From: Pseudomonadota bacterium
GTDB lineage: Bacteria > Myxococcota_A > Polyangia > Palsa-1104 > JAEUJZ01
Assembly: GCA_035328405.1 (NCBI GenBank)
Contig: DAOLIT010000010.1
Coordinates: 3,529-67,528, forward strand
Length of the DNA stretch: 64,000 bases
Direction of reading: 5' to 3'
Positions 41,401 through 59,508 of this stretch are shown here, in pieces. Under the pieces are notes generated by a model that made no database searches, was not told the DNA's origin, and saw nothing but the letters and a program-made list of their open reading frames with translations. Each line of letters begins with the position of its first letter. Position 1 is the first letter of the stretch. The translations under genes and the position numbers were made by a program.

Positions 41401-41482
41401 GCCCGAGTGGCGAAATTGGTAAACGCAGAGGACTTAAAATCCTTAGCCGCATGGCGTGTGGGTTCGATTCCCGCCTCGGGCA
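41401..41482 (+). tRNA. tRNA-Leu (anticodon TAA)
   Basis: Cloverleaf: acceptor GCCCGAG/CTCGGGC, D-arm, anticodon loop cTTAAaa, long variable arm, T-arm GTGGG-TTCGATT-CCCGC, discriminator A. Confidence 0.85.
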
Positions 41483-49186: not shown

Positions 49187-49828
49187 TCAGCGCAACAGGC
49201 CGCAGTGCCGTCCAGTGCGGCGGGCTTCCTCGATCGCCTCCATGGGCGGCACCGGGCGAATCTCCCCCATCAAACCGTTTGGCAGAAGCTCGATGTCCAC
49301 AAACGAGGGATAGAAGTGACGGATCATGCGAACCATGTGCCGGTCTCCCTCGGAATAGGTCCGCACGAACGAAAAATTGCGGAACGGCCCGTCGTGCAGA
49401 TCCAGCAATTCCTGAAATGTGCCGTAATCGAGAAAACTCGCGATGTCCTTGGCGAGGCTGGGAAAGAAAATGAAGTTCCGAAACCGCGATTCATAGACCG
49501 CTTCTATTGGGGGAACAGCCTTGATCTCGCCCATGTATCCATTGGGCAAAATCTCGATGTCGGCGCAGGATTCTCCATACAGTTCGCTGACTCGCATCCA
49601 GTTTTTCCCATCGCGACAAAACCGTCGTTCAACCGCGAAATCACTTGATGGCCCATCGCTAAGAGAAAAAACTTCATCGAACGTGCCCAGGTCTTTCCAT
49701 TCCACGATCCGCTGAAGATCCCTGGGTCGCAACGTAAACGGCACAAGGTCTTCGGGCGGCGGGAGCCACCCAAACAAATCGTCCAACGGAGGGAGCGGTT
49801 CAAAGTCAGGCATGTGCAAAACCCCCAT
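49187..49828 (-). CDS. hypothetical protein with internal tandem domain duplication; candidate immunity protein for the adjacent toxin
   Basis: Two ~90-aa repeats (DGKNWMRVSELYGESCADIEILPNGYMGEIKAVPPIEAVYE / DRHMVRMIRHFYPSFVDIELLPNGLMGEIRPVPPMEAIEE). No signal peptide. Lies directly 3' of the toxin gene. Confidence 0.5.
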   Translation of the reverse strand: MGVLHMPDFEPLPPLDDLFGWLPPPEDLVPFTLRPRDLQRIVEWKDLGTFDEVFSLSDGPSSDFAVERRFCRDGKNWMRVSELYGESCADIEILPNGYMGEIKAVPPIEAVYESRFRNFIFFPSLAKDIASFLDYGTFQELLDLHDGPFRNFSFVRTYSEGDRHMVRMIRHFYPSFVDIELLPNGLMGEIRPVPPMEAIEEARRTGRHCGLLR

Positions 49829-49931: not shown

Positions 49932-52900
49932 TCAGGGCTCGCGGTCGGGGTCCTCCATCGTGGACTGCACCGTTGGAACCCCATCGTCATCCAGAGAGGA
50001 AACCGTCCCCCCGCGCCCCAGCGCAGTTCGGCCCGAAAACGTCAGCTCCTGGTTCATTTGGAAGAACGGATCGTTGTGTTCGTCGCGCAGTCCTTGCGAG
50101 GCCGTCATCCCCATGCCCGTCGAAGGATCGTTGGATTCAAAGCGGCCCCGCAGTTGAATGTGTTGGAAATTTTTGCGTTCCTTGTTCCACCGGAGAAGCT
50201 GCGGAAGTTTGGCTTCCAACTCTGCCGCTTTGGCATCGGGAAACGTCTGCCGCAGGTTCGTAAGTTGCGCATTTCGTTCCGCGAGCGCGGCTTGCTGCAA
50301 GTCGTAGCCCATCGGAACTTGCAGTTTCTGAATCATCTCCGGCGTGAGCGTCGCTTCGAGCACACGCAAATTCTCCGCGCCGTCGGGATTGACGGTCGCC
50401 AGGCCACTAGACTCCCGGTTCACGTAGGGGTTTTTGGTCGGGTCGGCGGTCACGTAATCCAGGCCCAGGTTCTTGATGCGCTGGTCGGCGTTCATCCCCT
50501 CGGTGTTCTGGAGCAGACCCACATCCCCACTGACCGTCCAATTCGGGGTTCCCTCTTTGTAGAACTTGTCCGCCGTATCGCCGCCGATGACCTTGGCGAT
50601 TTTTTGCCCCGCTTGCACGTCCTCGAACAGCGCAATGTTCATTTTGAGCAGCAGTTTGAGTTCCTGGTCGGTCAGCTTGCCCCGCGTTTGTCCAAGCGCA
50701 TCGACTTCCGAGTGCGCCCCGATCGTCCGATGTTCCGTCGCGGGTTTGCCAGCGTTCGTCTGCGCTTCCAACTCGCGCGCCACGCTGTCGGGCATCGTCG
50801 CCTGCTGGTTCTTTTTGATGGTGCCCTTGAGCACTTCGATCTCGTCGGGCGTAAAGCCTTTGGACCGCAGCCGTTCTTCGACCGTGCTGGCTTTGGGCAT
50901 CGTCTTTGGATCGACGCCCAGCTCGGTCGCGAAACCCTGCAACGTGCGCGCTTCATCGACACCGAGCACAGAACCATCCGCTTTCTTCTGGCCTTCCGCC
51001 TTTTTGTGTTCCGCCTCAGCCGCCAGCTCGCGCAACGCCTGTTCGTCGCCCTTTTTCCGCGCCGCGATTTCCTGTTCCCACTGGTTGACCATTTCGTGGT
51101 CTTCAGTGGTCTTCGCCTGAGCGCGCAGATCTTCGAGAGCTTGCTCGTCTGCCGACAGCTTCCGCTTCGGACGCCCCTTGTCATCCAGGGTGCTCTCTTC
51201 ACCCACCCCAGCCTTGGCGTTCTTTTTGACTTTCGCGTCCGCTTCGGTGTCCTTGGCCTTTTCGCCCGATTCCGGTCCCACCGGCTTGGCCTGGTCCGTT
51301 TTGCCCTTCTCTTGCGCAGAAGCGTCCTGGCTCTTTTCGTGCGGATCGGCGGCTTTCCCGTCTGCCACATCTTGGGGTTTTACCGGGTGGTCGTCCTGTT
51401 TGGCTTCCTCGTGCCGCGTTTTTTCCTGGTCCGCCTGTTGCTTGCTTTCTTTCACCGCTTCTTCGGGCGCTTTTTCGTTTTTCCCCTTCTGTTTTTCGGC
51501 GGCCACCTCCTTGTGCACCTCGCTCACGTCGTCCTTGTCGCCCTTCTTGCTGTCGCCGTGCGCACCTTCCTCTGACCCCGCATCGCCCCCCTGGTTTTGC
51601 TCGGCCTTCGGTTTGTCTGGCCCCTGATCTGGGGTTTGAGCCTGCGCTTTTTTCGCTTCCTTCAGCTCCGCACGGGTCTCCGCGATGCTGTCGAGCGACC
51701 CCGAAAGTCCTGCACCACCCACCGACGTCACCCATTTCTTCGCGATGTCTTCGGGACGGCCAGAAAACATGCTGGGATCGAGCACATTGGCGGCGGTCTG
51801 GCCCGCTGCGCTGCTGCTTCCGCCCTTGATGGCCGAGAACATGTACGGATTCATCCCGTTTGGACCGTTTCCAAACGCTTTTCCCACGCCTGCGCTCGTT
51901 CCACCGTTCACAAAACTCGTCAGCATGCTCGAACCGACTTGGCTACCCATTCCTTTCACGAAGTCGCCAAAGTCCCCCTGGTAGTTTTGCTCGTTCATCA
52001 GTCCGCCCACCAAGCTGTTGATTCCGTTTTGCCCCGCGCTCGACAACCCCCCTTTCAACATCGTTTGCAGCATCGTCGCCGTCTTCGGGTCCGCAATCCC
52101 CACAAGCTTGTTGAGCTGTCCTTCCAGGCCGGGCAGTTTGAACGCACCTGCCGTCAGCGCGCTCGCCAGCGTCGTCACCGCATCCACCCCGATGTCTTCG
52201 AGCGCATATCCGCCCTCCAGCATCACCCCTTTGACCGCCATGCTGCTCGCTCCGCCTAGGAGCGCGGACAGCGCCGCCACCACCGCGGGAGACGCCGAGC
52301 CCGCCGTCGCAATCGAAACCGCTGCCCCCACCACCACCGCTGCGCCCGTCGCCACTGCGTTGGTCGCCGAATCCTTCGCCGCCTGGTAGTTCTGCACGTC
52401 CTGACCTTGGTATTCCGTCAGCACGCCCAACCGATCTTTGGCCGCCCCAGACCACGACCCGTCTTTTTGGGCTTGCTGGGCCAAGTTGTTGATTCGCTGG
52501 TGTTGGTAATCGAGCACTTGCCCAGAATCCGAAAACAGATCCGTCACACCGCGCGAGAACCAGTTGCTGCCGCTGCCGCGATCAAATTCGTAGGCCTCGT
52601 TCGCCCGCGACACCATTTCCTCTGGCGTTTCGGGTTTGCCTTTCATCATTTGGCCGATTTCAAAGCCGTCGCGCCCGCTCACTTCGCCTTTGAGCAACGC
52701 ATCCAAATCTTGTCCGTATTTCTCTTTGTACGTTTTCCGCAGCTCATCGATTTCTGTTTTGGACTTGCCTTCCAGCGTCTTGCGAATCAGTTCCTCATTC
52801 GTGCCAATCCCGTTCGTTGCATATTTCAGCGCAAACTCATCGCTGATTTTTCCGTCTTTTTTCAGTTGATTCGCTTTTTCCAAATCGAGCCCGGACAGCT

Positions 52901-54131
52901 CACTTTTCAGCATCTGGTCGAAATTCTGTCCGCCCGCTTTGTTGCCATATTGCTGGTTGTATTTGGCAATCAGTTGTTCGCGTTCTTTTGGCGATTTGCC
53001 CTCCATCGACTTGAAGATCGCCTCTTCGTCCGTGCCCCAAAAGTCTTCGGACGCTACTTTGACCCGAGCCGCTTCTGCCCCTGCCTTGTCGCCCTTGAGC
53101 AAATTCGACGCCACATCTTTTTCGGCCCCAGAAAACTCGCGCCCAAGCGCCTTGGTCAACGGTTCGCCCGTCTTTTTCTGGTACGCCGCCGCCAGCGCCT
53201 TGCGTTCTTTTTCGTCTTTGCACGATTCGATGGCGTCATACACCCCGTTTTCATCCGTCCCCAAACCGAGGTTGAGAAAACCGCCATTCATCGCTTCATC
53301 CAGCTTCACTGCTGCCGCTTTTGCTTTGTCCCCTTCAAGCAACGCTTTCGACAGTGCCAAATCGTTCCCGGACATTTCGCTTTTGAGCATCTTGTCCAGG
53401 CTCTGGCCCGTCTTCTTTTCATACGCCGCCACGATCTGTTTGCGCTGCGCTGGGTCTGTCACATTTTCCAGAACCGATTGAATTTTCTTCTCATCGGTTC
53501 CCATTCCAAACATTCCGCCATGGGCCGCATTGTCGAGCGCCGCAACCGCACTCTTGACCGGATCTCCCGACAGAGCCGCCTGCGCTTCTTCCAGGTCTTT
53601 GCCCCCCAGCTCCCCTTTGATGTCGTTGTCCAGGCTGCGGCCAAAGTGGTCCTGATACGCCGCTTTGATCGCTTTGACCTCCGCAGGAGACTTCCCTCGC
53701 AGCGCATTGTGAATGGCGTCTTCGTCGGTGCCCCAACCATCCATCGCCTTGAAAAGCTGGTTGGCCGAATCCCGAACCGCTTTCGGATCGATCGGTTTCT
53801 CCTCAACTGCCGGCGCCGCCTTTTTCGCGTCGAGCTTCGGATCGAGCTTCGGATCGAGCTTCGGATCGAGCTTCGGGTCAACTTGTGGACCACGCTTGTC
53901 CATCGGCTTGTCTGGCAACGCAGCGGGCAACTTCCCTGGCAACACCGGGCCAATCGGAGAAACGGGGTCGCCAGGTCCTCCAGGCCCCTTGGACGGCGGC
54001 GGCATTTTGTTGCCACCTCCGAACAAACTGGTCACTTTGGACCAAATCCCCTGCTCTCCGCCCTTCTGAGCGTCGGGCTTTTGCGTGGTCGGTTTGTTCT
54101 TGTCGCCCTGAAAAAAATCGAACAACGACAT
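49932..54131 (-). CDS. large annexin-repeat polymorphic-toxin-like protein
   Basis: ATG start (MSLFDFFQG; the tracked ORF begins at an upstream TTG, 54143). 5-6 annexin repeats with the endonexin motif (K-G-x-G-T-[38]-D/E; e.g. KAMDGWGTDEDAIHNALRGKSPAEVKAIKAAYQDHFGRSLDNDIKGELGG). Then a Gly/Ala-rich hydrophobic block, a K/E/D-rich linker and a ~400-aa C-terminal region. No signal peptide. Confidence 0.75.
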   Translation of the reverse strand: MSLFDFFQGDKNKPTTQKPDAQKGGEQGIWSKVTSLFGGGNKMPPPSKGPGGPGDPVSPIGPVLPGKLPAALPDKPMDKRGPQVDPKLDPKLDPKLDPKLDAKKAAPAVEEKPIDPKAVRDSANQLFKAMDGWGTDEDAIHNALRGKSPAEVKAIKAAYQDHFGRSLDNDIKGELGGKDLEEAQAALSGDPVKSAVAALDNAAHGGMFGMGTDEKKIQSVLENVTDPAQRKQIVAAYEKKTGQSLDKMLKSEMSGNDLALSKALLEGDKAKAAAVKLDEAMNGGFLNLGLGTDENGVYDAIESCKDEKERKALAAAYQKKTGEPLTKALGREFSGAEKDVASNLLKGDKAGAEAARVKVASEDFWGTDEEAIFKSMEGKSPKEREQLIAKYNQQYGNKAGGQNFDQMLKSELSGLDLEKANQLKKDGKISDEFALKYATNGIGTNEELIRKTLEGKSKTEIDELRKTYKEKYGQDLDALLKGEVSGRDGFEIGQMMKGKPETPEEMVSRANEAYEFDRGSGSNWFSRGVTDLFSDSGQVLDYQHQRINNLAQQAQKDGSWSGAAKDRLGVLTEYQGQDVQNYQAAKDSATNAVATGAAVVVGAAVSIATAGSASPAVVAALSALLGGASSMAVKGVMLEGGYALEDIGVDAVTTLASALTAGAFKLPGLEGQLNKLVGIADPKTATMLQTMLKGGLSSAGQNGINSLVGGLMNEQNYQGDFGDFVKGMGSQVGSSMLTSFVNGGTSAGVGKAFGNGPNGMNPYMFSAIKGGSSSAAGQTAANVLDPSMFSGRPEDIAKKWVTSVGGAGLSGSLDSIAETRAELKEAKKAQAQTPDQGPDKPKAEQNQGGDAGSEEGAHGDSKKGDKDDVSEVHKEVAAEKQKGKNEKAPEEAVKESKQQADQEKTRHEEAKQDDHPVKPQDVADGKAADPHEKSQDASAQEKGKTDQAKPVGPESGEKAKDTEADAKVKKNAKAGVGEESTLDDKGRPKRKLSADEQALEDLRAQAKTTEDHEMVNQWEQEIAARKKGDEQALRELAAEAEHKKAEGQKKADGSVLGVDEARTLQGFATELGVDPKTMPKASTVEERLRSKGFTPDEIEVLKGTIKKNQQATMPDSVARELEAQTNAGKPATEHRTIGAHSEVDALGQTRGKLTDQELKLLLKMNIALFEDVQAGQKIAKVIGGDTADKFYKEGTPNWTVSGDVGLLQNTEGMNADQRIKNLGLDYVTADPTKNPYVNRESSGLATVNPDGAENLRVLEATLTPEMIQKLQVPMGYDLQQAALAERNAQLTNLRQTFPDAKAAELEAKLPQLLRWNKERKNFQHIQLRGRFESNDPSTGMGMTASQGLRDEHNDPFFQMNQELTFSGRTALGRGGTVSSLDDDGVPTVQSTMEDPDREP

Positions 54132-54147
54132 CTTGCCCCCCAAAACG

Positions 54148-54205
54148 TTGTGCGTCGCGCCGTTGAGATTATCGTCTGGTTTCGACGCAAGTGTCTGTTT
54201 CGAGG
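54148..54205. promoter_or_regulatory. ~57-nt palindrome-containing element, copy A (immediately 5' of the toxin gene)
   Basis: ttgtgcgtcgcgccgttgagattatcgtctggtttcgacgcaagtgtctgtttc, with internal 7-bp inverted repeat TGCGTCG...CGACGCA. Near-identical to copy B at 58774-58830. Confidence 0.6.
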
Positions 54206-54410
54206 GAAGGTCGTGTTTGGGGAACTGGGTCTACGGAAGACCGTTTACCTACTGCGCATCGAGCCAGGACAGATCGCCCTCGAACAGGCACAGGTTCCTG
54301 TTGCCCGAGGTCTGGGACTCCCTTGGCCGAAGTCAGGGACTCCCTTGCAGGTTCCACTCCCGCCGTCTCCGCCCGAACTACCCCGGATAGGCATTCTCTC
54401 CATCCTGCCT

Positions 54411-54752
54411 TCAGTACCGGTGTTTCGTCGTCTCAATCTCCTCGACCTCGCGGGCACCCGCGACCGGGAGAATCTCGGTCAGCACCCTGTGCCGGGCGTT
54501 CGCCACGCGCTCGTCGTGCTCCATGTCCTCGGATTCGACCTTCAGGACCGCGTCGAGTATACCCTTGTAGTGATCGTAGAATCGTAGTCTTGCCTTGTCG
54601 CCGATGTCCGCACTGAGCCAGTCGTCCTCGTAGCGCCGCTCGGTGCTGTAATGGACCCAGGGGCGCTTCGTCGCCGGTTCGAGCAATTTCTTCAATCGAC
54701 CGAAATAGTCGTTGTCGGTCTTGAACCGCCAGGTGATGTAGGTCGTCTTCAT
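54411..54752 (-). CDS. small acidic hypothetical protein (candidate immunity protein for orphan cassette 2)
   Basis: 113 aa, begins 25 nt after the stop of the orphan cassette ORF, same strand. No signal peptide. Confidence 0.45.
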   Translation of the reverse strand: MKTTYITWRFKTDNDYFGRLKKLLEPATKRPWVHYSTERRYEDDWLSADIGDKARLRFYDHYKGILDAVLKVESEDMEHDERVANARHRVLTEILPVAGAREVEEIETTKHRY

Positions 54753-54776
54753 TCGTGCTCTCGCAATCTAGGAGTA

Positions 54777-56405
54777 CTAGTCCCTGTCGGGTCCAGTGTA
54801 CAGGGTCGGGGGCGTCGTGAACGGGTCGTTTCCAATGTTCAGCTTGAAGTCGAACAGCCCGTCCTTGTTTTTCGGATCTGCTAGCGTGGCCGGGTCATAG
54901 GCGCGCTGGTCCCATTCCTTGCCGTACCGGTAGAGATCGCCGCCCAGGTCGGTATTGGAGAACCCCGGCTTGCCGTCGGGTGAGCCGGTCTTGAAGATAC
55001 CGTAGTCGGCGTTGATCGGGTTGTCGATTTGCATCGCTCCGACCTTGGCCTGGTCGCTGAACACGGCGAGGTCGGTGTCGGATTCGGGCGTCCACGCGCC
55101 GCGCTGGAACCAATCCTCGTCGTTGCGTCCGCTACCATAGTGTTGCAGGAGCTTCATCGGGTTGTTCTTCCAGCCGGTGGTGCCTGAGCCGACCTGGACG
55201 ACCTGCATGTCGGTGATGCCATTACGGTCGGCGATGGCGGCGAGGCCCCCCTGGAAGTCGCGCATCTGCTCGGTGGCTCCGGCGAGATCGTTGACGTCGC
55301 CGCGTGCCCCCTTATAGGTCAGCGGCACCCGCTCGCCGTCCGCGTTTCCCTGGACCGCGAGCTTCAAGCGTTCGGCGGAGACATCGTTCGGGTGCTCGGC
55401 CTCGCCGCTTCGGACGCGCTCGTAGTTCGACTCGTTGAGCTTGCGCAAATGGTTGTGGGCGGCCTGGATGATCTCGTCGGGCGTCGAGCCCGATGTCAAG
55501 CCAGCGGCCTTTCCCGCCTCGCTGTTTACGAAGGCATCCATGCCATTGAACTCAAGCTGGTGCTTGTCGTGATCCTCCAGACTTATCTTCCCAGACGCGA
55601 AGAGCTCGGCTTCGCGCTCGCGGCTGAGGCGACCTTCCTTCGGCAGTACGTCGAGCTTGTCCATCGCCCACTTCACGGCCTTTTCAACCTCATTGGCGGA
55701 AGGCGGCAACTTCTTGGGCCCCTCCGCGTTGGAGACGTCCGCCGCAGTCAAGACGGCAGTCGTCTTGTCGTCATGAGTCTCGTCACCCAGGGTCGGCTTT
55801 GAGGTGTCCTCGGTCTTGGGTTTTACCGGGTGGTCGTCCTGTTTGGCTTCCTCGTGCCGCGTTTTTTCCTGGTCCGCCTGTTGCTTGCTTTCTTTCACCG
55901 CTTCTTCGGGCGCTTTTTCGTTTTTCCCCTTCTGTTTTTCGGCGGCCACCTCCTTGTGCACCTCGCTCACGTCGTCCTTGTCGCCCTTCTTGCTGTCGCC
56001 GTGCGCACCTTCCTCTGACCCCGCATCGCCCCCCTGGTTTTGCTCGGCCTTCGGTTTGTCTGGCCCCTGATCTGGGGTTTGAGCCTGCGCTTTTTTCGCT
56101 TCCTTCAGCTCCGCACGGGTCTCCGCGATGCTGTCGAGCGACCCCGAAAGTCCTGCACCACCCACCGACGTCACCCATTTCTTCGCGATGTCTTCGGGAC
56201 GGCCAGAAAACATGCTGGGATCGAGCACATTGGCGGCGGTCTGGCCCGCTGCGCTGCTGCTTCCGCCCTTGATGGCCGAGAACATGTACGGATTCATCCC
56301 GTTTGGACCGTTTCCAAACGCTTTTCCCACGCCTGCGCTCGTTCCACCGTTCACAAAACTCGTCAGCATGCTCGAACCGCTCAGCGCGTCCCTGTCTTGA
56401 GCCAA
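54777..56405 (-). pseudogene. orphan (5'-truncated) toxin cassette: homology block plus an alternative ~350-aa C-terminal domain
   Basis: Nucleotides ~55817-56380 are essentially identical to 51377-51945 inside the toxin gene (encoding SSMLTSF...EEAKQDDHPVKP). The reading frame then diverges into an unrelated C-terminal domain. No ATG/RBS at the 5' boundary (the tracked start is a TTG); the 5' end overlaps the upstream pentapeptide gene. Confidence 0.65.
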
Positions 56406-57124
56406 GCAGGAATCGTCGTCACATCAGGTGCAGGTCCGCCGTCGAAGTCGCCAGAAAAATCAGGGCTGATGATCTCACAGGCCCCTTCCATCACCGGTTC
56501 CCCCTGAACGCCATGAAACGCGCAGCGCTCGAACACTGCATCCTTGAGCTTCAGACCGTTGAAGTTGGCGCTGCGGAAATCGCACTGAACAAAGCGGGTC
56601 CGGTACGCGCTGCCTAGGGGCGGTCCCCCGGTTCGGGTGAGCTTCGCACCGCGAAAGTTGCAGTACTCGAACAAACTGTCATCGAAGGTCATGTCGTTGA
56701 GTTTTGCGCCGGTGAAATTGCAGCGGAGCGTGCGCGCTTCTGGAAAGGAGCTCCGATCCATGATCGCAAAAGAAAAATCCGAGTCGCTGATCATTCCACC
56801 GTCGTAGTCAATCATCGACAGCGTGCTGCCCACGAAGCGACAGCCTTCGATGCGAGCGCGCTCCAAGGCGCACATGCTCAAACTGGCGCGATCAAAGACG
56901 CAGCGAATGAGCTCGATTTCTTCAAAGCCGCACTGCTGAAACTGCGAATCACTGAGATCGCAGCTCACGAAGCGAGCGCCTAGAAAAATGCAACCGGCGT
57001 CGCGTGACTTACGGAACTCATGGCCTTCGAGATCGATGCGGCCCGCGCCGGTCTTTCCCCGCTCCAGCCACTGCCGATGTTCCCGTTGAACCTCTTTGGA
57101 GAGTTCGACTTGCCAGCTCAACAT
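56381..57124 (-). CDS. pentapeptide-repeat protein (candidate immunity protein for the deaminase-fold orphan fragment)
   Basis: Consecutive A(D/N)LxF-type pentapeptides (CDLSDSQFQQCGFEEIELIRCVFDRASLSMCALERARIEGCRFVGSTLS...). Starts 16 nt after the ADA-like fragment. Confidence 0.65.
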   Translation of the reverse strand: MLSWQVELSKEVQREHRQWLERGKTGAGRIDLEGHEFRKSRDAGCIFLGARFVSCDLSDSQFQQCGFEEIELIRCVFDRASLSMCALERARIEGCRFVGSTLSMIDYDGGMISDSDFSFAIMDRSSFPEARTLRCNFTGAKLNDMTFDDSLFEYCNFRGAKLTRTGGPPLGSAYRTRFVQCDFRSANFNGLKLKDAVFERCAFHGVQGEPVMEGACEIISPDFSGDFDGGPAPDVTTIPAWLKTGTR

Positions 57125-57139
57125 TGGGCCACCCTAAGC

Positions 57140-57550
57140 TCACTCCGCGTCCTGGTCAAGGCGTGCATTGTCCCGTGCGTCTCCGTCGGAAACCTGATCG
57201 CCGTAGGCGCTTGCGGACTCTTTTAGGAGGCTCATGCCCTGCGCGATTCGCGCCCGCTGCTCGTCTGACATCTGTTGGAAGTACTTCAGTTCTCCATCCA
57301 TCTCGATGGGGAAGCGGCCCTTCATATATGCCTTGAATAGCTGCTCGGCGCGCTTGTATTCCTTGCTGAGCGTGGTGTGCATCACCGAGTGCCCGTCGGT
57401 ACTGAGGATGGTTGGCACCCCCTCAGCAATCAGGTTGATGAGGGAGTGATTCTGGAAGGTGTTGTCGCGGCCCCCTCGTACCGGCTGGAGCGAGCCGGTT
57501 TGCTCGTTGCTGGTCAGGTTGACTTCCGCGTAGATCCCAAGCTCCTTCAT
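57140..57550 (-). pseudogene. orphan fragment encoding the C-terminal third of an adenosine/AMP-deaminase-fold (metal-dependent hydrolase) domain
   Basis: 'AEVNLTSNEQTGSL' ~ ADA 'CPxSNxxT' and 'VPTILSTDGHSVMHTTLSKEY' ~ ADA 'SINTDDP...EY'. Upstream (57590-57650) is a remnant of the toxin homology block in another frame (AAEKQNGKNEKAPDD) ending in a stop. Confidence 0.55.
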
Positions 57551-57671
57551 GCGCTTGATCTGCTCGGACGTTGCGTGCGTGGCATGACCGAAGCGATCTG
57601 GCTGAGCGCAGTGTCGTCGGGCGCTTTTTCGTTTTTCCCGTTCTGTTTTTCGGCTGCGACCTCACGGTCTG

Positions 57672-57975
57672 GGTGCCAGACTTGGTGGTCTTGGATCGGG
57701 CCTTGGCGGTCTTGGACCTAGACTGGGTGGTCTTGGACCTCGACCTGGTGGTCTTGGACCTAGCCTTGGCGGTCTTGGACCTAGACTGGGTGGTCTTGGA
57801 CCTAGACTGGGTGGTCTTGGACCGGGCCTTGGTGGTGTTGGACTGAGACCTGGTGGTCTTGGACCTAGACTGGGTGGTCTTGGACCGGGCCTTGGTGGTG
57901 TTGGACTGACACCTGGTGGTCTTGGACCTAGACCTGGTGGTCTTGGACGTGGCCTTGGCGGTGTTGGACCTAGAC
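57672..57975. repeat. 21-bp tandem repeat array x14 (ggtcttggacctagactgggt-like)
   Basis: Direct read of 14 consecutive 21-nt units with point variants. Open in several frames on both strands. Confidence 0.9.
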
Positions 57976-58140
57976 TTGGTGAAGGATCGCTCCCGATTTG
58001 TGAATCTGTGTTCACTTTTTGTGATGGAAAAACCACGCAATCCTGAAAAAAAATTGCTTTTTTTCAGCGTTTCCCTTGCGGCGCGAGATTTTTGAACTAC
58101 ACATGTGGCACTCGCACTCTGCGAGAAAGGAGACCGCCTC

Positions 58141-58635
58141 ATGGCCAAAGACCCAAAAAACCCTGTTCCCGGTGACCTCGCGATCGATTGCACGCCCATT
58201 GCTGACCTGATTGTGGACCTGCCCCCAGGTGCGATGACCGGCATGCGCAAAGAACGCGCAGGCCTCGACGCGCTGCTGACGGAGATTGCAGCCAATCAAA
58301 AACTCTTCGGGGTCCGAGCGGGCATTGTTGACGAGGAGGTGAAGGCGCTCGACAAGCTGACCGAGCAACTTCAGCACACCCGCAAATACAAAGAACCGCT
58401 GCGCAAACTGCTGGAGCTTGTCACCGAGACCGAAGCTGCCCTCGACAATGAGCGGCACCAGCGCATCAGCAGCATCGCCACAAGCGTTGAACAACGCGCC
58501 AAGATTCCCGGCAACGAGGACCTCATGAGTCTGTACCGAGCGACGCGCGAATACCGCTCTGCCGTCGGGAAAAAAGCGGCCCACACGCGCACCAAACAAC
58601 AAAAGAACGACCACGACCCCAAGCCCGCCGTCTAA
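58141..58635 (+). CDS. hypothetical coiled-coil protein
   Basis: RBS AAAGGAGA, start MAKDPKNPV. Ordinary composition, unlike overlapping Arg-rich ORFs. No recognised motif. Confidence 0.45.
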   Translation: MAKDPKNPVPGDLAIDCTPIADLIVDLPPGAMTGMRKERAGLDALLTEIAANQKLFGVRAGIVDEEVKALDKLTEQLQHTRKYKEPLRKLLELVTETEAALDNERHQRISSIATSVEQRAKIPGNEDLMSLYRATREYRSAVGKKAAHTRTKQQKNDHDPKPAV

Positions 58636-58773
58636 CAAACGAACGATGTAGCCCCTCGCCGACCCCCTAGGCCCTTCCCCGGCCCTTCCTGCTGTATCCC
58701 CCCGGCTGTACGCTCCCTTTTCCAAACGGTGTCTTCCGCACAGAGTCGATGTCTTTCCCACAAAAACAAACTT

Positions 58774-58830
58774 TGTGCGTCGCGCCGTTGAGATTATGGT
58801 CTGGTTTCGACGCAAGTGTCCGTTTCAAGG
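58774..58830. promoter_or_regulatory. ~57-nt palindrome-containing element, copy B (immediately 5' of the 58843 gene)
   Basis: ttgtgcgtcgcgccgttgagattatggtctggtttcgacgcaagtgtccgtttc; 2-3 mismatches to copy A; followed by RBS CAAGGAGA and ATG. Confidence 0.6.
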
Positions 58831-58842
58831 AGACCGCAGGCC

Positions 58843-59508
58843 ATGGGCAGTCCAAACATCGCGTATTTGCTCGGGGATACCCAAGCTGGGATTTCCACCT
58901 ACTTCGAGGCGGGAACGCTCCTGGCGCTAACCCAAGGCCCCGACCCCAAGCTGACGCAGTATCTCGCCACCGAGTTGGCTCAACTCCAAAGCACCTATCC
59001 AGCGGTCAAACGCGACTTGGCGCGTGTCGCGGCGGTGCTGCGCGTGTTTGGCCACGAACCTCCAAAAGAGCCGAAAATGCCGACCGACTTTCCGGTGTGG
59101 ACCCAAGCTGTCAGCAAGCAAGTCCACGCCGCGCTCGAAGAAGATCAGCCCGCATTTGCGCACTACTTGCTCGGATATGTACTCGGGGACGCTACTGCGA
59201 CGCTGCGCGTGCTTGTGTACGTTTCGGCGCTGCTCGGCTTTGTCCCGCAGGACAAACGGCTGCGCGACATCGAACAAAACGTGCTGGAAGCCCTGGAACG
59301 CGGCAGTGAGAAGCTCTCGCACCTGGCCCTCCATCCGGCGTTTTCCGGCGGAATGAAGCAGGTCCTGTCCCAGATGGTTCCGTGTGTGAATGGCCCCGCG
59401 CTTTGGGCGAGACAATCCGACTCGCCAGCAACAAAAACCGTCGCCAACACCCTTTCTGATTTTTTGCGGTTGCGAAAGCAGCTCGACGACGAACGCGAAA
59501 AGGCCTAG
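58843..59508 (+). CDS. hypothetical protein
   Basis: RBS AAGGAGA 8 nt upstream of ATG (MGSPNIAYLLGD). 221 aa, helical, no recognised motif. Confidence 0.5.
   Translation: MGSPNIAYLLGDTQAGISTYFEAGTLLALTQGPDPKLTQYLATELAQLQSTYPAVKRDLARVAAVLRVFGHEPPKEPKMPTDFPVWTQAVSKQVHAALEEDQPAFAHYLLGYVLGDATATLRVLVYVSALLGFVPQDKRLRDIEQNVLEALERGSEKLSHLALHPAFSGGMKQVLSQMVPCVNGPALWARQSDSPATKTVANTLSDFLRLRKQLDDEREKA

What the first reader, a model, noticed from the sequence alone, without database searches (positions are those of the whole stretch)
56381..57550. Deaminase-fold orphan toxin remnant paired with a pentapeptide-repeat protein
ORF 57140-57550 encodes only the C-terminal ~135 aa of an adenosine/AMP-deaminase-fold domain (LTSNEQT..., ...ILSTDGHSV...EY), fused in the wrong frame to a remnant of the toxin linker. 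It is therefore a decayed displaced toxin tip. Immediately downstream is an intact 247-aa pentapeptide-repeat protein. Pentapeptide-repeat proteins are DNA mimics (Qnr/MfpA) and have been seen as immunity proteins in polymorphic toxin loci. An intact immunity gene next to a dead toxin is the usual footprint of past toxin turnover. A purine-deaminase-fold toxin tip would be unusual, since most deaminase toxins are CDA-fold.
Basis: partly seen in the sequence, partly recalled or inferred. Interest (0 to 1): 0.6.

Follow-up and report, generated by a model that had tools for sequence, protein, structure and literature searches.

The report
Truncated deaminase toxin with pentapeptide immunity
The broken-off tail end of an adenosine-deaminase-type bacterial toxin sits next to its still-intact pentapeptide-repeat immunity gene, and tracing it shows that this toxin/immunity pairing is widespread and I found no description of it in the literature I could search.

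Summary
ORF 57140-57550 (minus strand; homology starts at about 57598) covers only positions 307-441 of a 446-position domain. It is fused out of frame to a 50-nt remnant of the toxin linker (57614-57663). An intact 247-aa pentapeptide-repeat protein (PRP) follows 16 nt downstream.

An exhaustive HMMER search found 296 cluster representatives of the domain. Most sit at the C-terminus of 1.2-7 kb-aa proteins. These include eCIS_core/DUF4157 toxins and annexin-bearing toxins like the one next door. An AlphaFold model of an intact member (pLDDT 89.6) matches only adenosine/AMP-deaminase-superfamily structures. All zinc ligands and catalytic residues are conserved except the second Asp.

In 18 of 23 genome loci where the domain ends the gene and downstream sequence exists, a PRP follows directly. 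These PRPs have a shared N-terminal H-x2-W...G-x-G cap. No PRP follows when the domain lies inside giant multi-effector proteins.

The window therefore holds a catalytically dead toxin remnant plus an orphan immunity gene. This is an ordinary kind of locus, but the toxin/immunity family behind it was absent from the papers I could search.

Open points: the remnant lies 5' of the intact toxin, and it shows pN/pS 0.12, based on only 10 differences.

The parts
57140..57598 (-). Remnant of an ADA-superfamily toxin domain. Only the last ~150 aa remain (family HMM positions 307-441 of 446). The open reading frame is 57140-57550 (136 aa).
   Evidence: Pfam and NCBIfam ADA hits. Family HMM E=6e-42. 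Aligns end-to-end with the C-terminal third of intact members and keeps RFGHATH, EVNLTSN..T and STDGHSVM, but lacks the HxH, GxDxxGxE and RPHVGE motifs.
57614..57663 (-). 50-nt remnant of the toxin linker, in a different frame from the deaminase ORF.
   Evidence: 92% identical to 51460-51509 of the intact annexin toxin gene. Its translation EVAAEKQNGKNEKAP lies in another frame.
57678..57981 (.). Tandem repeat of 21 nt (14.5 copies; super-period 63 nt) directly 5' of the linker remnant. Copy number differs between strains.
   Evidence: TRF, the repeat finder, and length differences against L003 and L054.
56381..57124 (-). Intact 247-aa pentapeptide-repeat protein, inferred to be the cognate (now orphan) immunity protein of the ADA-like toxin.
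   Evidence: Pfam pentapeptide families, E about 1e-20. Homologous PRPs lie directly 3' of ADA-like tips in many loci. Shared N-terminal cap H16/W19/G26/G28. Acidic, pI 5.25.
58768..58830 (-). Second copy of a 63-nt repeat. The first copy (54143-54205) abuts the start of the intact toxin gene. It contains the only sigma-70-like match on the minus strand in 56300-58900. It may be the old toxin promoter.
   Evidence: A consensus match only; function not shown.
54777..56405 (-). Context: a second 5'-truncated toxin ORF (542 aa). Its first ~190 aa are 98-100% identical to the pre-toxin/linker region of the intact toxin. It starts where the PRP gene ends.
   Evidence: Absent from the related strains L002-L004.
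54411..54752 (-). Context: a 113-aa ORF after the second truncated toxin. Presumed to be its immunity gene.
   Evidence: Position only. No family hit.
49932..54143 (-). Context: the intact 1403-aa annexin-repeat toxin with a different, unclassified C-terminal tip.
   Evidence: Annexin E=4.9e-45. Shares the linker sequence with the remnant.

Best explanation
This is a dead toxin tip next to its live immunity gene.

SHOWN
- The 136-aa ORF is the last third of a ~440-580-aa toxin domain of the adenosine/AMP-deaminase (amidohydrolase TIM-barrel) superfamily.
- A non-homologous deletion joined a stub of the toxin linker, out of frame, to the middle of the domain.
- That deletion removed three of the four zinc ligands and the catalytic Glu, so the remnant cannot be an enzyme.
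- Intact versions of the domain are the C-terminal payload of large toxins, including ones with annexin-repeat or eCIS_core/DUF4157 N-terminal regions.
- Those payloads are usually followed at once by a PRP of one specific subfamily.

INFERRED
- The intact toxin is delivered into a target cell and deaminates an adenine nucleotide. The closest solved relative by sequence profile acts on N6-methyl-AMP. The related conflict effector Cad1 converts ATP to ITP. The outcome would be growth arrest.
- The acidic PRP binds the toxin domain in the producer cell and blocks it.
- In this bacterium the toxin was lost, but the PRP was kept as orphan immunity against neighbours that still carry the toxin.
- The PRP may be transcribed from the duplicated promoter-like 63-nt element.
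For: Remnant and junction.

The domain is a toxin payload:
- 296 representatives have E<=1e-3, and most lie in 1200-7000-aa proteins.
- The domain sits within 25 aa of the C-terminus in many of them.
- eCIS_core is N-terminal in P0011, P0026, P0043 and P0061.
- ADP-ribosyltransferase or calpain domains occur in the same giant proteins.
- Annexin plus ADA tip occurs in P0107, P0056, P0114 and P0080.

ADA superfamily membership:
- PF00962 scores above its gathering threshold in intact members.
- The AlphaFold model has pLDDT 89.6 and pTM 0.90.
- All 50 top-listed PDB matches are ADA, ADAL, adenine deaminase, Cad1 or AMP deaminase, at probability 1.0.
- The family profile hits N6-mAMP deaminase 6iv5 at E=2.6e-14 with the motifs aligned.
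- H-x-H, H261, E264, H307 and D362 are invariant.

The PRP as immunity:
- A PRP is adjacent in L001, L010 and L013.
- It is adjacent in 18 of 23 genome loci where the domain ends the ORF and downstream DNA exists, and in 0 of 14 loci where the domain is internal.
- Every PRP-HMM hit listed for those 39 loci lies on the toxin strand, 3' of the ADA-domain start (one ORF, in L037, overlaps the toxin's 3' end in another frame).
- Start/stop overlaps or short gaps are typical.
- The subfamily has its own N-terminal cap.
- In a metagenome scan, cap-bearing PRPs had an ADA domain upstream in two of three loci, while generic PRPs never did.
- Toxin and PRP pairwise identities correlate: r=0.71, Mantel p=2e-4, 16 pairs.

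Parallels: L027 has an intact toxin + PRP, then an ADA fragment + PRP. L048 has a fragment + PRP.

Retention: the same remnant + PRP is found on dozens of contigs. PRP pN/pS is 0.45.

The Cad1 ATP-to-ITP mechanism is from PMC11645235.
Against: - No toxicity, neutralisation or enzymatic activity has been measured for any member.
- The second Asp of the ADA signature (mouse ADA D296) is Ala or Gly throughout the family, so the substrate may not be an adenine compound.
- Five of the 23 informative loci have other downstream genes instead: FGE-sulfatase-like, HEAT-like and others.
- One cap-bearing PRP (L060) stands alone beside a protein that, from my reading of its sequence, looks like a carbonic anhydrase.
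- The remnant lies 5' of the intact toxin gene, the reverse of the canonical orphan order.
- The remnant shows 7 synonymous against 3 non-synonymous differences between two lineages (pN/pS 0.12, p about 0.002-0.01). That is not what a neutral pseudogene should show, though it rests on only 10 differences.
- PRP pN/pS of 0.45 is fairly relaxed.
Confidence: 0.75

Rival explanations
1. The 136-aa fragment is not dead weight. It is still expressed and selected, for example as a PRP-binding partner or regulator, as an upstream ORF needed to translate the PRP gene, or as a recombination cassette. This can coexist with the main explanation.
For: pN/pS is 0.12, from 7 synonymous and 3 non-synonymous differences between the window and the L002 lineage. 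The binomial p is 0.0016, or 0.011 if 30% of changes are expected to be synonymous. All family-invariant residues in the retained part are intact. The ORF is kept open on dozens of contigs. It ends 16 nt before the PRP start.
Against: The signal rests on only 10 differences and a single lineage comparison. Synonymous divergence in this island is 2-4 times that of the flanking genes, so imported or converted sequence could mimic constraint. There is no good Shine-Dalgarno sequence before its ATG, on my reading. It lacks three of the four metal ligands, so it has no enzymatic role.
Confidence: 0.15
2. The PRP is not an immunity protein. It could be a delivery or assembly accessory, like the PRPs of some T6SS spike clusters, or a Qnr/MfpA-like protector of gyrase that merely travels with the toxin.
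For: PRPs are known T6SS accessory factors (references found). Pentapeptide domains are mildly enriched near eCIS genes. Weak hits to Qnr, MfpA and HalA models, E about 1e-9 to 1e-11.
Against: The position, directly 3' of the toxin domain and often with overlapping stop/start, is the immunity position. The PRP is retained after loss of the toxin and of any delivery domain (this window, L048, L027). It is absent when the domain is internal in giant multi-effector proteins. Tandem PRP arrays follow one toxin in L059 and L027. Qnr, MfpA and HalA scores are far below their cut-offs: 26-42 bits against 240-500.
Confidence: 0.08
3. The ADA-like domain is a metabolic or scavenging enzyme displayed on large surface proteins, not a toxin. 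The fragment is then just a broken housekeeping gene.
For: The superfamily is mostly metabolic. No member has been tested.
Against: It is a C-terminal payload on eCIS_core/DUF4157 proteins, and it shares proteins with ART and calpain toxin domains. It comes with dedicated downstream partner genes. Orphan arrays exist. Gene content at this site varies between strains.
Confidence: 0.03

Closest known systems
Orphan toxin/immunity modules of polymorphic toxin systems (cdiA-CT/cdiI and rhs-CT orphans; catalogue in Zhang et al. 2012, PMC3482391)
   Same: A 5'-truncated toxin tip carries a stub of the conserved upstream region and is followed by an intact immunity gene. Module content varies between strains. 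A long identical repeat (567 nt) links an orphan to the main gene.
   Different: The orphans lie 5' of the intact gene, not 3'. The toxin fold and the immunity fold are not in that catalogue: neither 'pentapeptide' nor 'adenosine deaminase' nor 'amidohydrolase' occurs in the text held, which is the first 300,000 characters.
eCIS/PVC-associated DUF4157 (eCIS_core) toxins and annexin-bearing toxins of Haliangium (PMC3482391; PMC8213781)
   Same: Intact family members carry eCIS_core at the N-terminus or annexin repeats. Annexin was already noted as an accessory domain in PVC-delivered toxins.
   Different: The window's toxin has no eCIS_core match. I did not look for an eCIS locus in the window. 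An ADA-type payload is not listed in the text or held supplements of PMC8213781, though some supplement files were cut when stored.
ADA-superfamily conflict effector Cad1, a CARF-fused deaminase that converts ATP to ITP (PMC11645235); RADAR RdrB by my recollection
   Same: The same enzyme superfamily is used to harm a cell through nucleotide deamination. There is a weak PADLOC hit to CARF_ADA, and Cad1 structures are among the fold matches.
   Different: Those are intracellular, sensor-activated defence enzymes with no immunity protein. Here the domain is an exported payload with a protein inhibitor. The sequence relationship is distant.
N6-methyl-AMP deaminase MAPDA/ADAL (PDB 6iv5, 6ijm, 8qch)
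   Same: The closest solved relatives by sequence profile (E=2.6e-14) and by fold. The HxH, GxDxxG, RxGH, SN..T and TD motifs align.
   Different: These are housekeeping enzymes of ~350 aa. The toxin domain has a large helical insert and a longer C-terminus, and it replaces the second Asp of TDD with Ala or Gly.
Protective pentapeptide-repeat proteins (Qnr, MfpA, McbG, AlbG) and a PRP annotated as a T7SS antitoxin (bioRxiv 10.64898/2026.07.13.738213)
   Same: Pentapeptide-repeat proteins that protect a cell from a toxic agent. The preprint gives a precedent for a PRP as immunity to a secreted protein toxin.
   Different: Qnr-type proteins protect the target (gyrase). Here direct toxin inhibition is inferred. 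The window's PRP fails the Qnr and MfpA cut-offs by a wide margin and has its own N-terminal cap.
CDA-fold deaminase toxins (DddA, SsdA, BURPS668_1122 family; PMC3239186)
   Same: Deaminase payloads of polymorphic toxins with dedicated immunity proteins.
   Different: The fold is unrelated (cytidine-deaminase fold against TIM barrel). Those act on nucleic-acid bases. The substrate here is probably a free nucleotide.

Membership tests
Adenosine/AMP deaminase superfamily (Pfam PF00962, amidohydrolase TIM barrel) | Profile match at or above the curated threshold | tested here: inconclusive
   The window fragment scores 23.1 bits against a 27-bit cut-off. Intact relatives pass: P0005 36.4, P0020 38.7, P0038 33.2, P0004 36.5. 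The fragment joins them at E=6e-42 through the family HMM.
Adenosine/AMP deaminase superfamily (Pfam PF00962, amidohydrolase TIM barrel) | (beta/alpha)8 barrel fold | tested here: met
   Tested on an intact relative, not on the window fragment. The P0020 domain model has pLDDT 89.6, and all 50 top-listed PDB matches are ADA-superfamily at probability 1.0. The window fragment covers only the last ~30% of the domain and cannot form the barrel.
Adenosine/AMP deaminase superfamily (Pfam PF00962, amidohydrolase TIM barrel) | Zinc ligands HxH, His (HxGE) and Asp, plus the catalytic Glu and His | tested here: not met
   The family keeps all of them: H11, H13, H261, E264, H307 and D362 are invariant. 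The window fragment keeps only the RFGH His and the TD Asp. HxH and HVGE are deleted.
Adenosine/AMP deaminase superfamily (Pfam PF00962, amidohydrolase TIM barrel) | Second Asp of the TDD motif (mouse ADA D296, which contacts the purine; from established knowledge of ADA) | tested here: not met
   The family has STD[A/G]xGVM and the window has STDGHSVM.
Adenosine/AMP deaminase superfamily (Pfam PF00962, amidohydrolase TIM barrel) | Deaminase activity on an adenine compound | not testable with these tools
   Needs enzyme assays.
Polymorphic-toxin orphan toxin/immunity module | The toxin domain recurs at the C-terminus of large proteins with varied N-terminal regions | tested here: met
Polymorphic-toxin orphan toxin/immunity module | A small gene directly 3' on the same strand, conserved with the toxin domain | tested here: met
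   A PRP is adjacent in 18 of 23 informative genome loci and in L001, L010, L013, L059 and L061. The two co-vary at r=0.71.
Polymorphic-toxin orphan toxin/immunity module | The orphan keeps a stub of the conserved region upstream of the tip | tested here: met
   A 50-nt linker remnant, 92% identical to the main toxin.
Polymorphic-toxin orphan toxin/immunity module | The orphan lies 3' of an intact toxin gene | tested here: not met
   The order on the minus strand is remnant, PRP, second truncated toxin, 113-aa ORF, intact toxin. The canonical order is seen in L027.
Polymorphic-toxin orphan toxin/immunity module | Toxicity of the tip and specific neutralisation by the neighbour | not testable with these tools
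   Needs co-expression experiments.
Pentapeptide-repeat proteins (Pfam PF00805/PF13599) | Profile match above the curated threshold | tested here: met
   72.8 bits against a 38-bit cut-off, and 69.5 against 20.2.
Pentapeptide-repeat proteins (Pfam PF00805/PF13599) | Right-handed quadrilateral beta-helix | tested here: inconclusive
   The single-sequence AlphaFold model failed (pLDDT 44.6).
Qnr/MfpA gyrase-protecting PRPs | Match to the curated Qnr or MfpA models | tested here: not met
   26-38 bits against cut-offs of 240-500.
eCIS_core (DUF4157) toxins | N-terminal eCIS_core domain on the toxin at this locus | tested here: not met
   There is no PF13699 hit on the 1403-aa toxin or the 542-aa ORF. 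The domain is present on distant family members only.

The most novel reading that the evidence does not exclude
The remnant is the footprint of a widespread class of exported bacterial toxins that I could not find described. On this reading they are purine-nucleotide deaminases of the ADA/ADAL TIM-barrel superfamily. They are carried by annexin-repeat, eCIS_core and giant multi-effector proteins. They are neutralised by a dedicated pentapeptide-repeat immunity family with an H-x2-W...G-x-G cap. This would be the first TIM-barrel deaminase toxin with a beta-helix immunity protein.
Probability: 0.55. Interest if true: 0.7.

Novelty: new variant of a known kind. Interest (0 to 1): 0.58.

Why it matters
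As a locus this is routine: a dead toxin tip with a surviving immunity gene. What it leads to is less routine.

- **A new toxin chemistry.** The toxin domain family has 296 representatives at 50% identity, across Myxococcota, cyanobacteria, Acidobacteriota, Vulcanimicrobiota and Pseudomonadota MAGs. Every member whose source gives it a name is called 'hypothetical protein'. If its members deaminate adenine nucleotides, they would carry the ATP-to-ITP logic recently found in CRISPR (Cad1) and RADAR defence into interbacterial or anti-eukaryotic toxins.
- **A new role for PRPs.** It would also give pentapeptide-repeat proteins a second, well-defined role as direct toxin inhibitors.
- **Testable now.** Both points can be tested directly with the named sequences.

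Tried and rejected
- The word-index homolog searches found almost nothing for the fragment (2 hits) and for the PRP (1 weak hit). The exhaustive HMMER search was needed.
As a single sequence it gave an unusable model (pLDDT 44.6), so no fold search was run on the PRP.
A narrower alignment returned mostly generic PRPs.
- An exact look-up of the 542-aa ORF found nothing, probably because a different start codon was called.
- PADLOC gave only a weak CARF_ADA hit. Rfam found only one tRNA in the window.
- Literature searches for ADA-type toxin tips, 'ATP deaminase' toxins and DUF4157 with deaminase found no description of this family.
- The 63-nt repeat does not fold better than shuffled sequence in three of the four strand/copy combinations. 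I therefore dropped the structured-RNA idea in favour of a promoter-like element.
- An assembly or frameshift artefact was rejected, because the same junction recurs on many independent contigs.
- The organism could not be named. The genome scan's patterns did not match the window's own variant motif.
Full report
**What is in the sequence**

Everything relevant is on the minus strand. Reading 5' to 3' along that strand:
- a 63-nt element at 58830-58768;
- about 0.8 kb that carries a plus-strand ORF;
- a 21-nt tandem repeat at 57981-57678 (14.5 copies);
- a 50-nt piece at 57663-57614, which is 92% identical to the linker region (51509-51460) of the neighbouring 1403-aa toxin gene;
- the deaminase-like reading frame, from about 57598.

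The linker piece reads EVAAEKQNGKNEKAP in one frame. The deaminase-like sequence (…DRFGHATHATSEQIKRMKELG…) is in another frame. The first start codon of the deaminase frame is the ATG at 57550, which gives the 136-aa ORF 57550-57140.

Sixteen bases after its stop codon, a 247-aa pentapeptide-repeat protein (PRP) begins (57124-56381). Then follow, in order:
- a 542-aa 5'-truncated toxin ORF (56405-54777);
- a 113-aa ORF (54752-54411);
- the other copy of the 63-nt element (54205-54143);
- the intact annexin-repeat toxin (54143-49932);
- a 213-aa ORF.

**Is the fragment deaminase-like?**

Pfam gives A_deaminase PF00962 at E=4.5e-5 over profile positions 212-295 of 330. That is below the curated threshold. 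NCBIfam gives aden_deam at E=3.9e-7. These hits are weak on their own.

The word-index homolog search found only a near-identical copy and one 63%-identical metagenome fragment. That fragment's contig (L001) extends the homology upstream through GFDVAAPE and RPHVGE motifs. It is followed by a PRP homologous to the window's PRP.

An exhaustive HMMER search of 1.84 billion representatives with the two aligned sequences returned 296 proteins at E<=1e-3 and 177 at E<=1e-10.

**What the family is**

I built an HMM of the whole domain from three intact members (446 positions). It matches all 148 retrieved proteins. In many proteins of 1200-2100 aa the domain ends within 25 residues of the C-terminus.

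Architectures seen:
- N-terminal eCIS_core (DUF4157) in P0011, P0026, P0043 and P0061.
- In giant proteins the domain is internal. It sits beside an ADP-ribosyltransferase domain (P0004) or a calpain-type protease (P0006, P0007).
- Four members (P0107, P0056, P0114, P0080) share annexin repeats and the following region with the window's own 1403-aa toxin.

Several intact members pass the PF00962 threshold.

An AlphaFold model of one compact member, made with 14 aligned sequences, has pLDDT 89.6 and pTM 0.90. All 50 top-listed PDB matches are ADA-superfamily members at probability 1.0. They include ADAL/N6-methyl-AMP deaminase, Plasmodium and bacterial adenosine deaminases, adenine deaminase, ADA2/ADGF, AMP deaminase and Cad1.

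The family profile hits Arabidopsis N6-mAMP deaminase at E=2.6e-14. The HxH, GxDxxG, RxGH, SN..T and TD motifs align.

The invariant family residues are the ADA metal ligands and catalytic residues: H-x-H, H and E of RPHVGE, H of RFGH, and D of STD. The one departure is the second Asp of the TDD motif, which is Ala or Gly throughout.

**What the window retains**

The fragment covers HMM positions 307-441 only. It aligns end-to-end with the C-terminal third of intact members and keeps every invariant residue of that part. It lacks HxH, GxDxxGxE and RPHVGE. It is truncated, not eroded, and it cannot be an enzyme. There is no other ADA-like or PRP sequence in the window.

**The PRP as partner**

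The intact 691-aa member P0005 is followed, with overlapping stop and start, by a 222-aa PRP homologous to the window's PRP. The annexin-bearing P0107 is followed by a 193-aa PRP.

A scan of one genome per species returned 39 loci. They come from Kofleriaceae and other Myxococcales MAGs, three cyanobacterial genera, a Vulcanimicrobiota MAG, a Blastocatellia MAG and Pseudomonadota MAGs. The loci break down as follows:

| Locus type | Loci | PRP directly after |
|---|---|---|
| Domain ends the ORF, downstream DNA available | 23 | 18 |
| Domain internal to a longer ORF | 14 | 0 |
| Domain ends the ORF at or near the contig end | 2 | cannot tell |

- The other five of the 23 have different downstream genes, for example an FGE-sulfatase-like protein, also seen after P0010.
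- Every PRP-HMM hit listed for these loci lies on the toxin strand, 3' of the ADA-domain start; one PRP ORF (L037) overlaps the toxin's 3' end in another frame.

The PRPs share an N-terminal cap with invariant His, Trp and two Gly (H-x2-W-x6-G-x-G), plus a ladder of Cys and Phe. All are acidic, pI 4.6-6.4.

A metagenome scan seeded with PRPs returned mostly generic PRPs, and none of those had an ADA-like domain nearby. Three loci had the cap:
- L059: a toxin followed by three tandem PRPs.
- L061: an ADA-like ORF cut by the contig start, then a PRP.
- L060: a PRP standing alone.

Across 16 pairs, identity between toxin segments correlates with identity between their PRPs (r=0.71, Mantel p=2e-4). 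That is expected if the two travel together as one module.

I take the PRP to be the cognate immunity protein. This rests on gene context only.

**Parallels and population data**

L027 (a Myxococcales MAG) shows the canonical layout: an intact toxin, a PRP, a frameshifted ADA fragment (HMM 215-443), a PRP, then further PRP and ADA scraps. L048 has a fragment (HMM 277-437) followed by a PRP.

In the window's own species, from activated-sludge and other metagenomes, the same 136-aa ORF and PRP occur on dozens of contigs. What follows the PRP varies:
- the window and L054 carry the 542-aa truncated toxin and the 113-aa ORF;
- L002-L004 carry an unrelated 153-aa ORF instead;
- L057 joins the two 567-nt repeats directly.

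This is the strain-level turnover expected of such loci.

**What does not fit neatly**

1. The remnants lie 5' of the intact gene, the opposite of the usual order. The second copy of the 63-nt element suggests that an older toxin gene once started at about 58770, but the sequence in between is unrelated. The first copy abuts the intact gene's start. The element holds the only sigma-70-like match on the minus strand of 56300-58900.
2. Between the window and the L002 lineage the fragment differs at 7 synonymous and 3 non-synonymous positions. That gives pN/pS 0.12, with p about 0.002-0.01 against neutrality. The PRP has pN/pS 0.45. Synonymous divergence in this island (0.05-0.08) is 2-4 times that of the flanking scpA, scpB and rluB-like genes (about 0.02). 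Imported or converted sequence may therefore be involved. With ten differences I treat this as unexplained rather than as evidence of function.

**Mechanism**

Shown:
- fold and active-site conservation in intact members;
- payload architecture;
- the partner gene;
- the truncation in the window.

Inferred:
- The intact toxin deaminates an adenine nucleotide in the target cell. The nearest solved relative by sequence profile acts on a nucleoside monophosphate. Cad1 shows that ATP-to-ITP conversion by this superfamily arrests growth (PMC11645235).
- The PRP binds and blocks the toxin.
- The window's PRP now serves as orphan immunity.

The Ala or Gly in place of the second Asp leaves the substrate open.

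**Comparison with what is known**

The 2012 catalogue of polymorphic toxins does not mention pentapeptide repeats, adenosine deaminase or amidohydrolase in the text held (the first 300,000 characters). It does note annexin domains in PVC-delivered toxins of Haliangium. The eCIS survey lists a 'deaminase' toxin without naming the fold. Its held supplements do not list PF00962, though some files were cut when stored. Pentapeptide domains are mildly enriched near eCIS genes. A 2026 preprint mentions a PRP annotated as a T7SS antitoxin. In the final profile search, every family member to which a source gives a name is called 'hypothetical protein'.

**Verdict**

The locus type is known. The toxin/immunity family it belongs to is absent from the papers I could search. 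I rate it a new variant of a known kind, with interest 0.58.

Noticed in passing
window 57678-57981: A 21-nt tandem repeat (14.5 copies; 63-nt super-period, 89% match) lies just 5' of the linker remnant. Two of the three minus-strand frames are open through it (PRPPSLG and SKTTxSR heptads). Array length differs between strains: about 197 nt longer in L003 and about 147 nt shorter in L054.
   Followed up: partly
window 54143-54205 and 58768-58830: A 63-nt direct repeat (94% identical, only two copies in the window). One copy abuts the start of the intact toxin gene. The other lies 1.1 kb 5' of the remnant. It holds a sigma-70-like -35/-10 match on the minus strand. Its fold energy is not exceptional in three of four strand/copy tests.
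   Followed up: partly
window 55814-56379 and 51370-51936; locus L057: A 567-nt repeat, 98-100% identical, links the 542-aa truncated toxin to the intact toxin. Contig L057 joins the two copies directly. That removes the second tip, the 113-aa ORF and the N-terminal ~735 codons of the main gene. It is either a real recombinant or an assembly collapse.
   Followed up: partly
L002 11171-11650 (also L003, L004) versus window 54297-56380: Related strains carry an unrelated 153-aa ORF where the window has the 542-aa truncated toxin plus the 113-aa ORF. The breakpoint is exactly at the PRP stop codon.
   Followed up: partly
window 49187-49828 (213-aa ORF after the intact toxin): Between the window and L002 this ORF is far more diverged (pS 0.20, pN 0.064) than the toxin gene before it (pS 0.038, pN 0.002; only 6 non-synonymous differences in 1387 codons).
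   Followed up: no
window 56381-59508 versus flanks: Synonymous divergence from the L002 lineage is 0.05-0.08 across the remnant, the PRP and the two plus-strand ORFs (58105-58635, 58816-59508). It is about 0.02 in the scpA, scpB and rluB-like genes and the TonB-dependent receptor. This suggests the island has a different history from its flanks.
   Followed up: partly
loci L027 5693-9133 and L059 3977-6220: L027 has an array: intact ADA-tipped toxin, PRP, frameshifted ADA fragment, PRP, PRP scraps, and another short ADA scrap. L059 has one ADA-tipped toxin followed by three tandem cap-bearing PRPs.
   Followed up: partly
proteins P0010 and P0020; loci L011 and L025: One clade of the ADA-like toxins has a nucleotidyltransferase (NTP_transf_2) region upstream of the deaminase domain. 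It is followed by an FGE-sulfatase-like protein instead of a PRP.
   Followed up: no
proteins P0004, P0006, P0007 (3000-3500 aa); loci L017, L030-L036: The ADA-like domain also occurs inside giant multi-domain proteins, next to ADP-ribosyltransferase or calpain-type protease domains. No PRP follows these. They may be multi-effector toxins aimed at eukaryotes.
   Followed up: no
locus L060 3794-4717: A cap-bearing PRP of the same subfamily stands alone between a beta-carbonic-anhydrase-like gene and a peptidoglycan-binding/L,D-transpeptidase-like gene, as judged by eye from their sequences. No ADA-like domain is nearby.
   Followed up: no
window 58105-58635 (+) and 58816-59508 (+): Two conserved plus-strand ORFs of unknown function (no significant family hits) lie between scpA and the toxin remnants. 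Their pN/pS values are 0.42 and 0.23.
   Followed up: no
window 41401-41482 (+): The only Rfam match at gathering score in the whole window is one tRNA gene.
   Followed up: no
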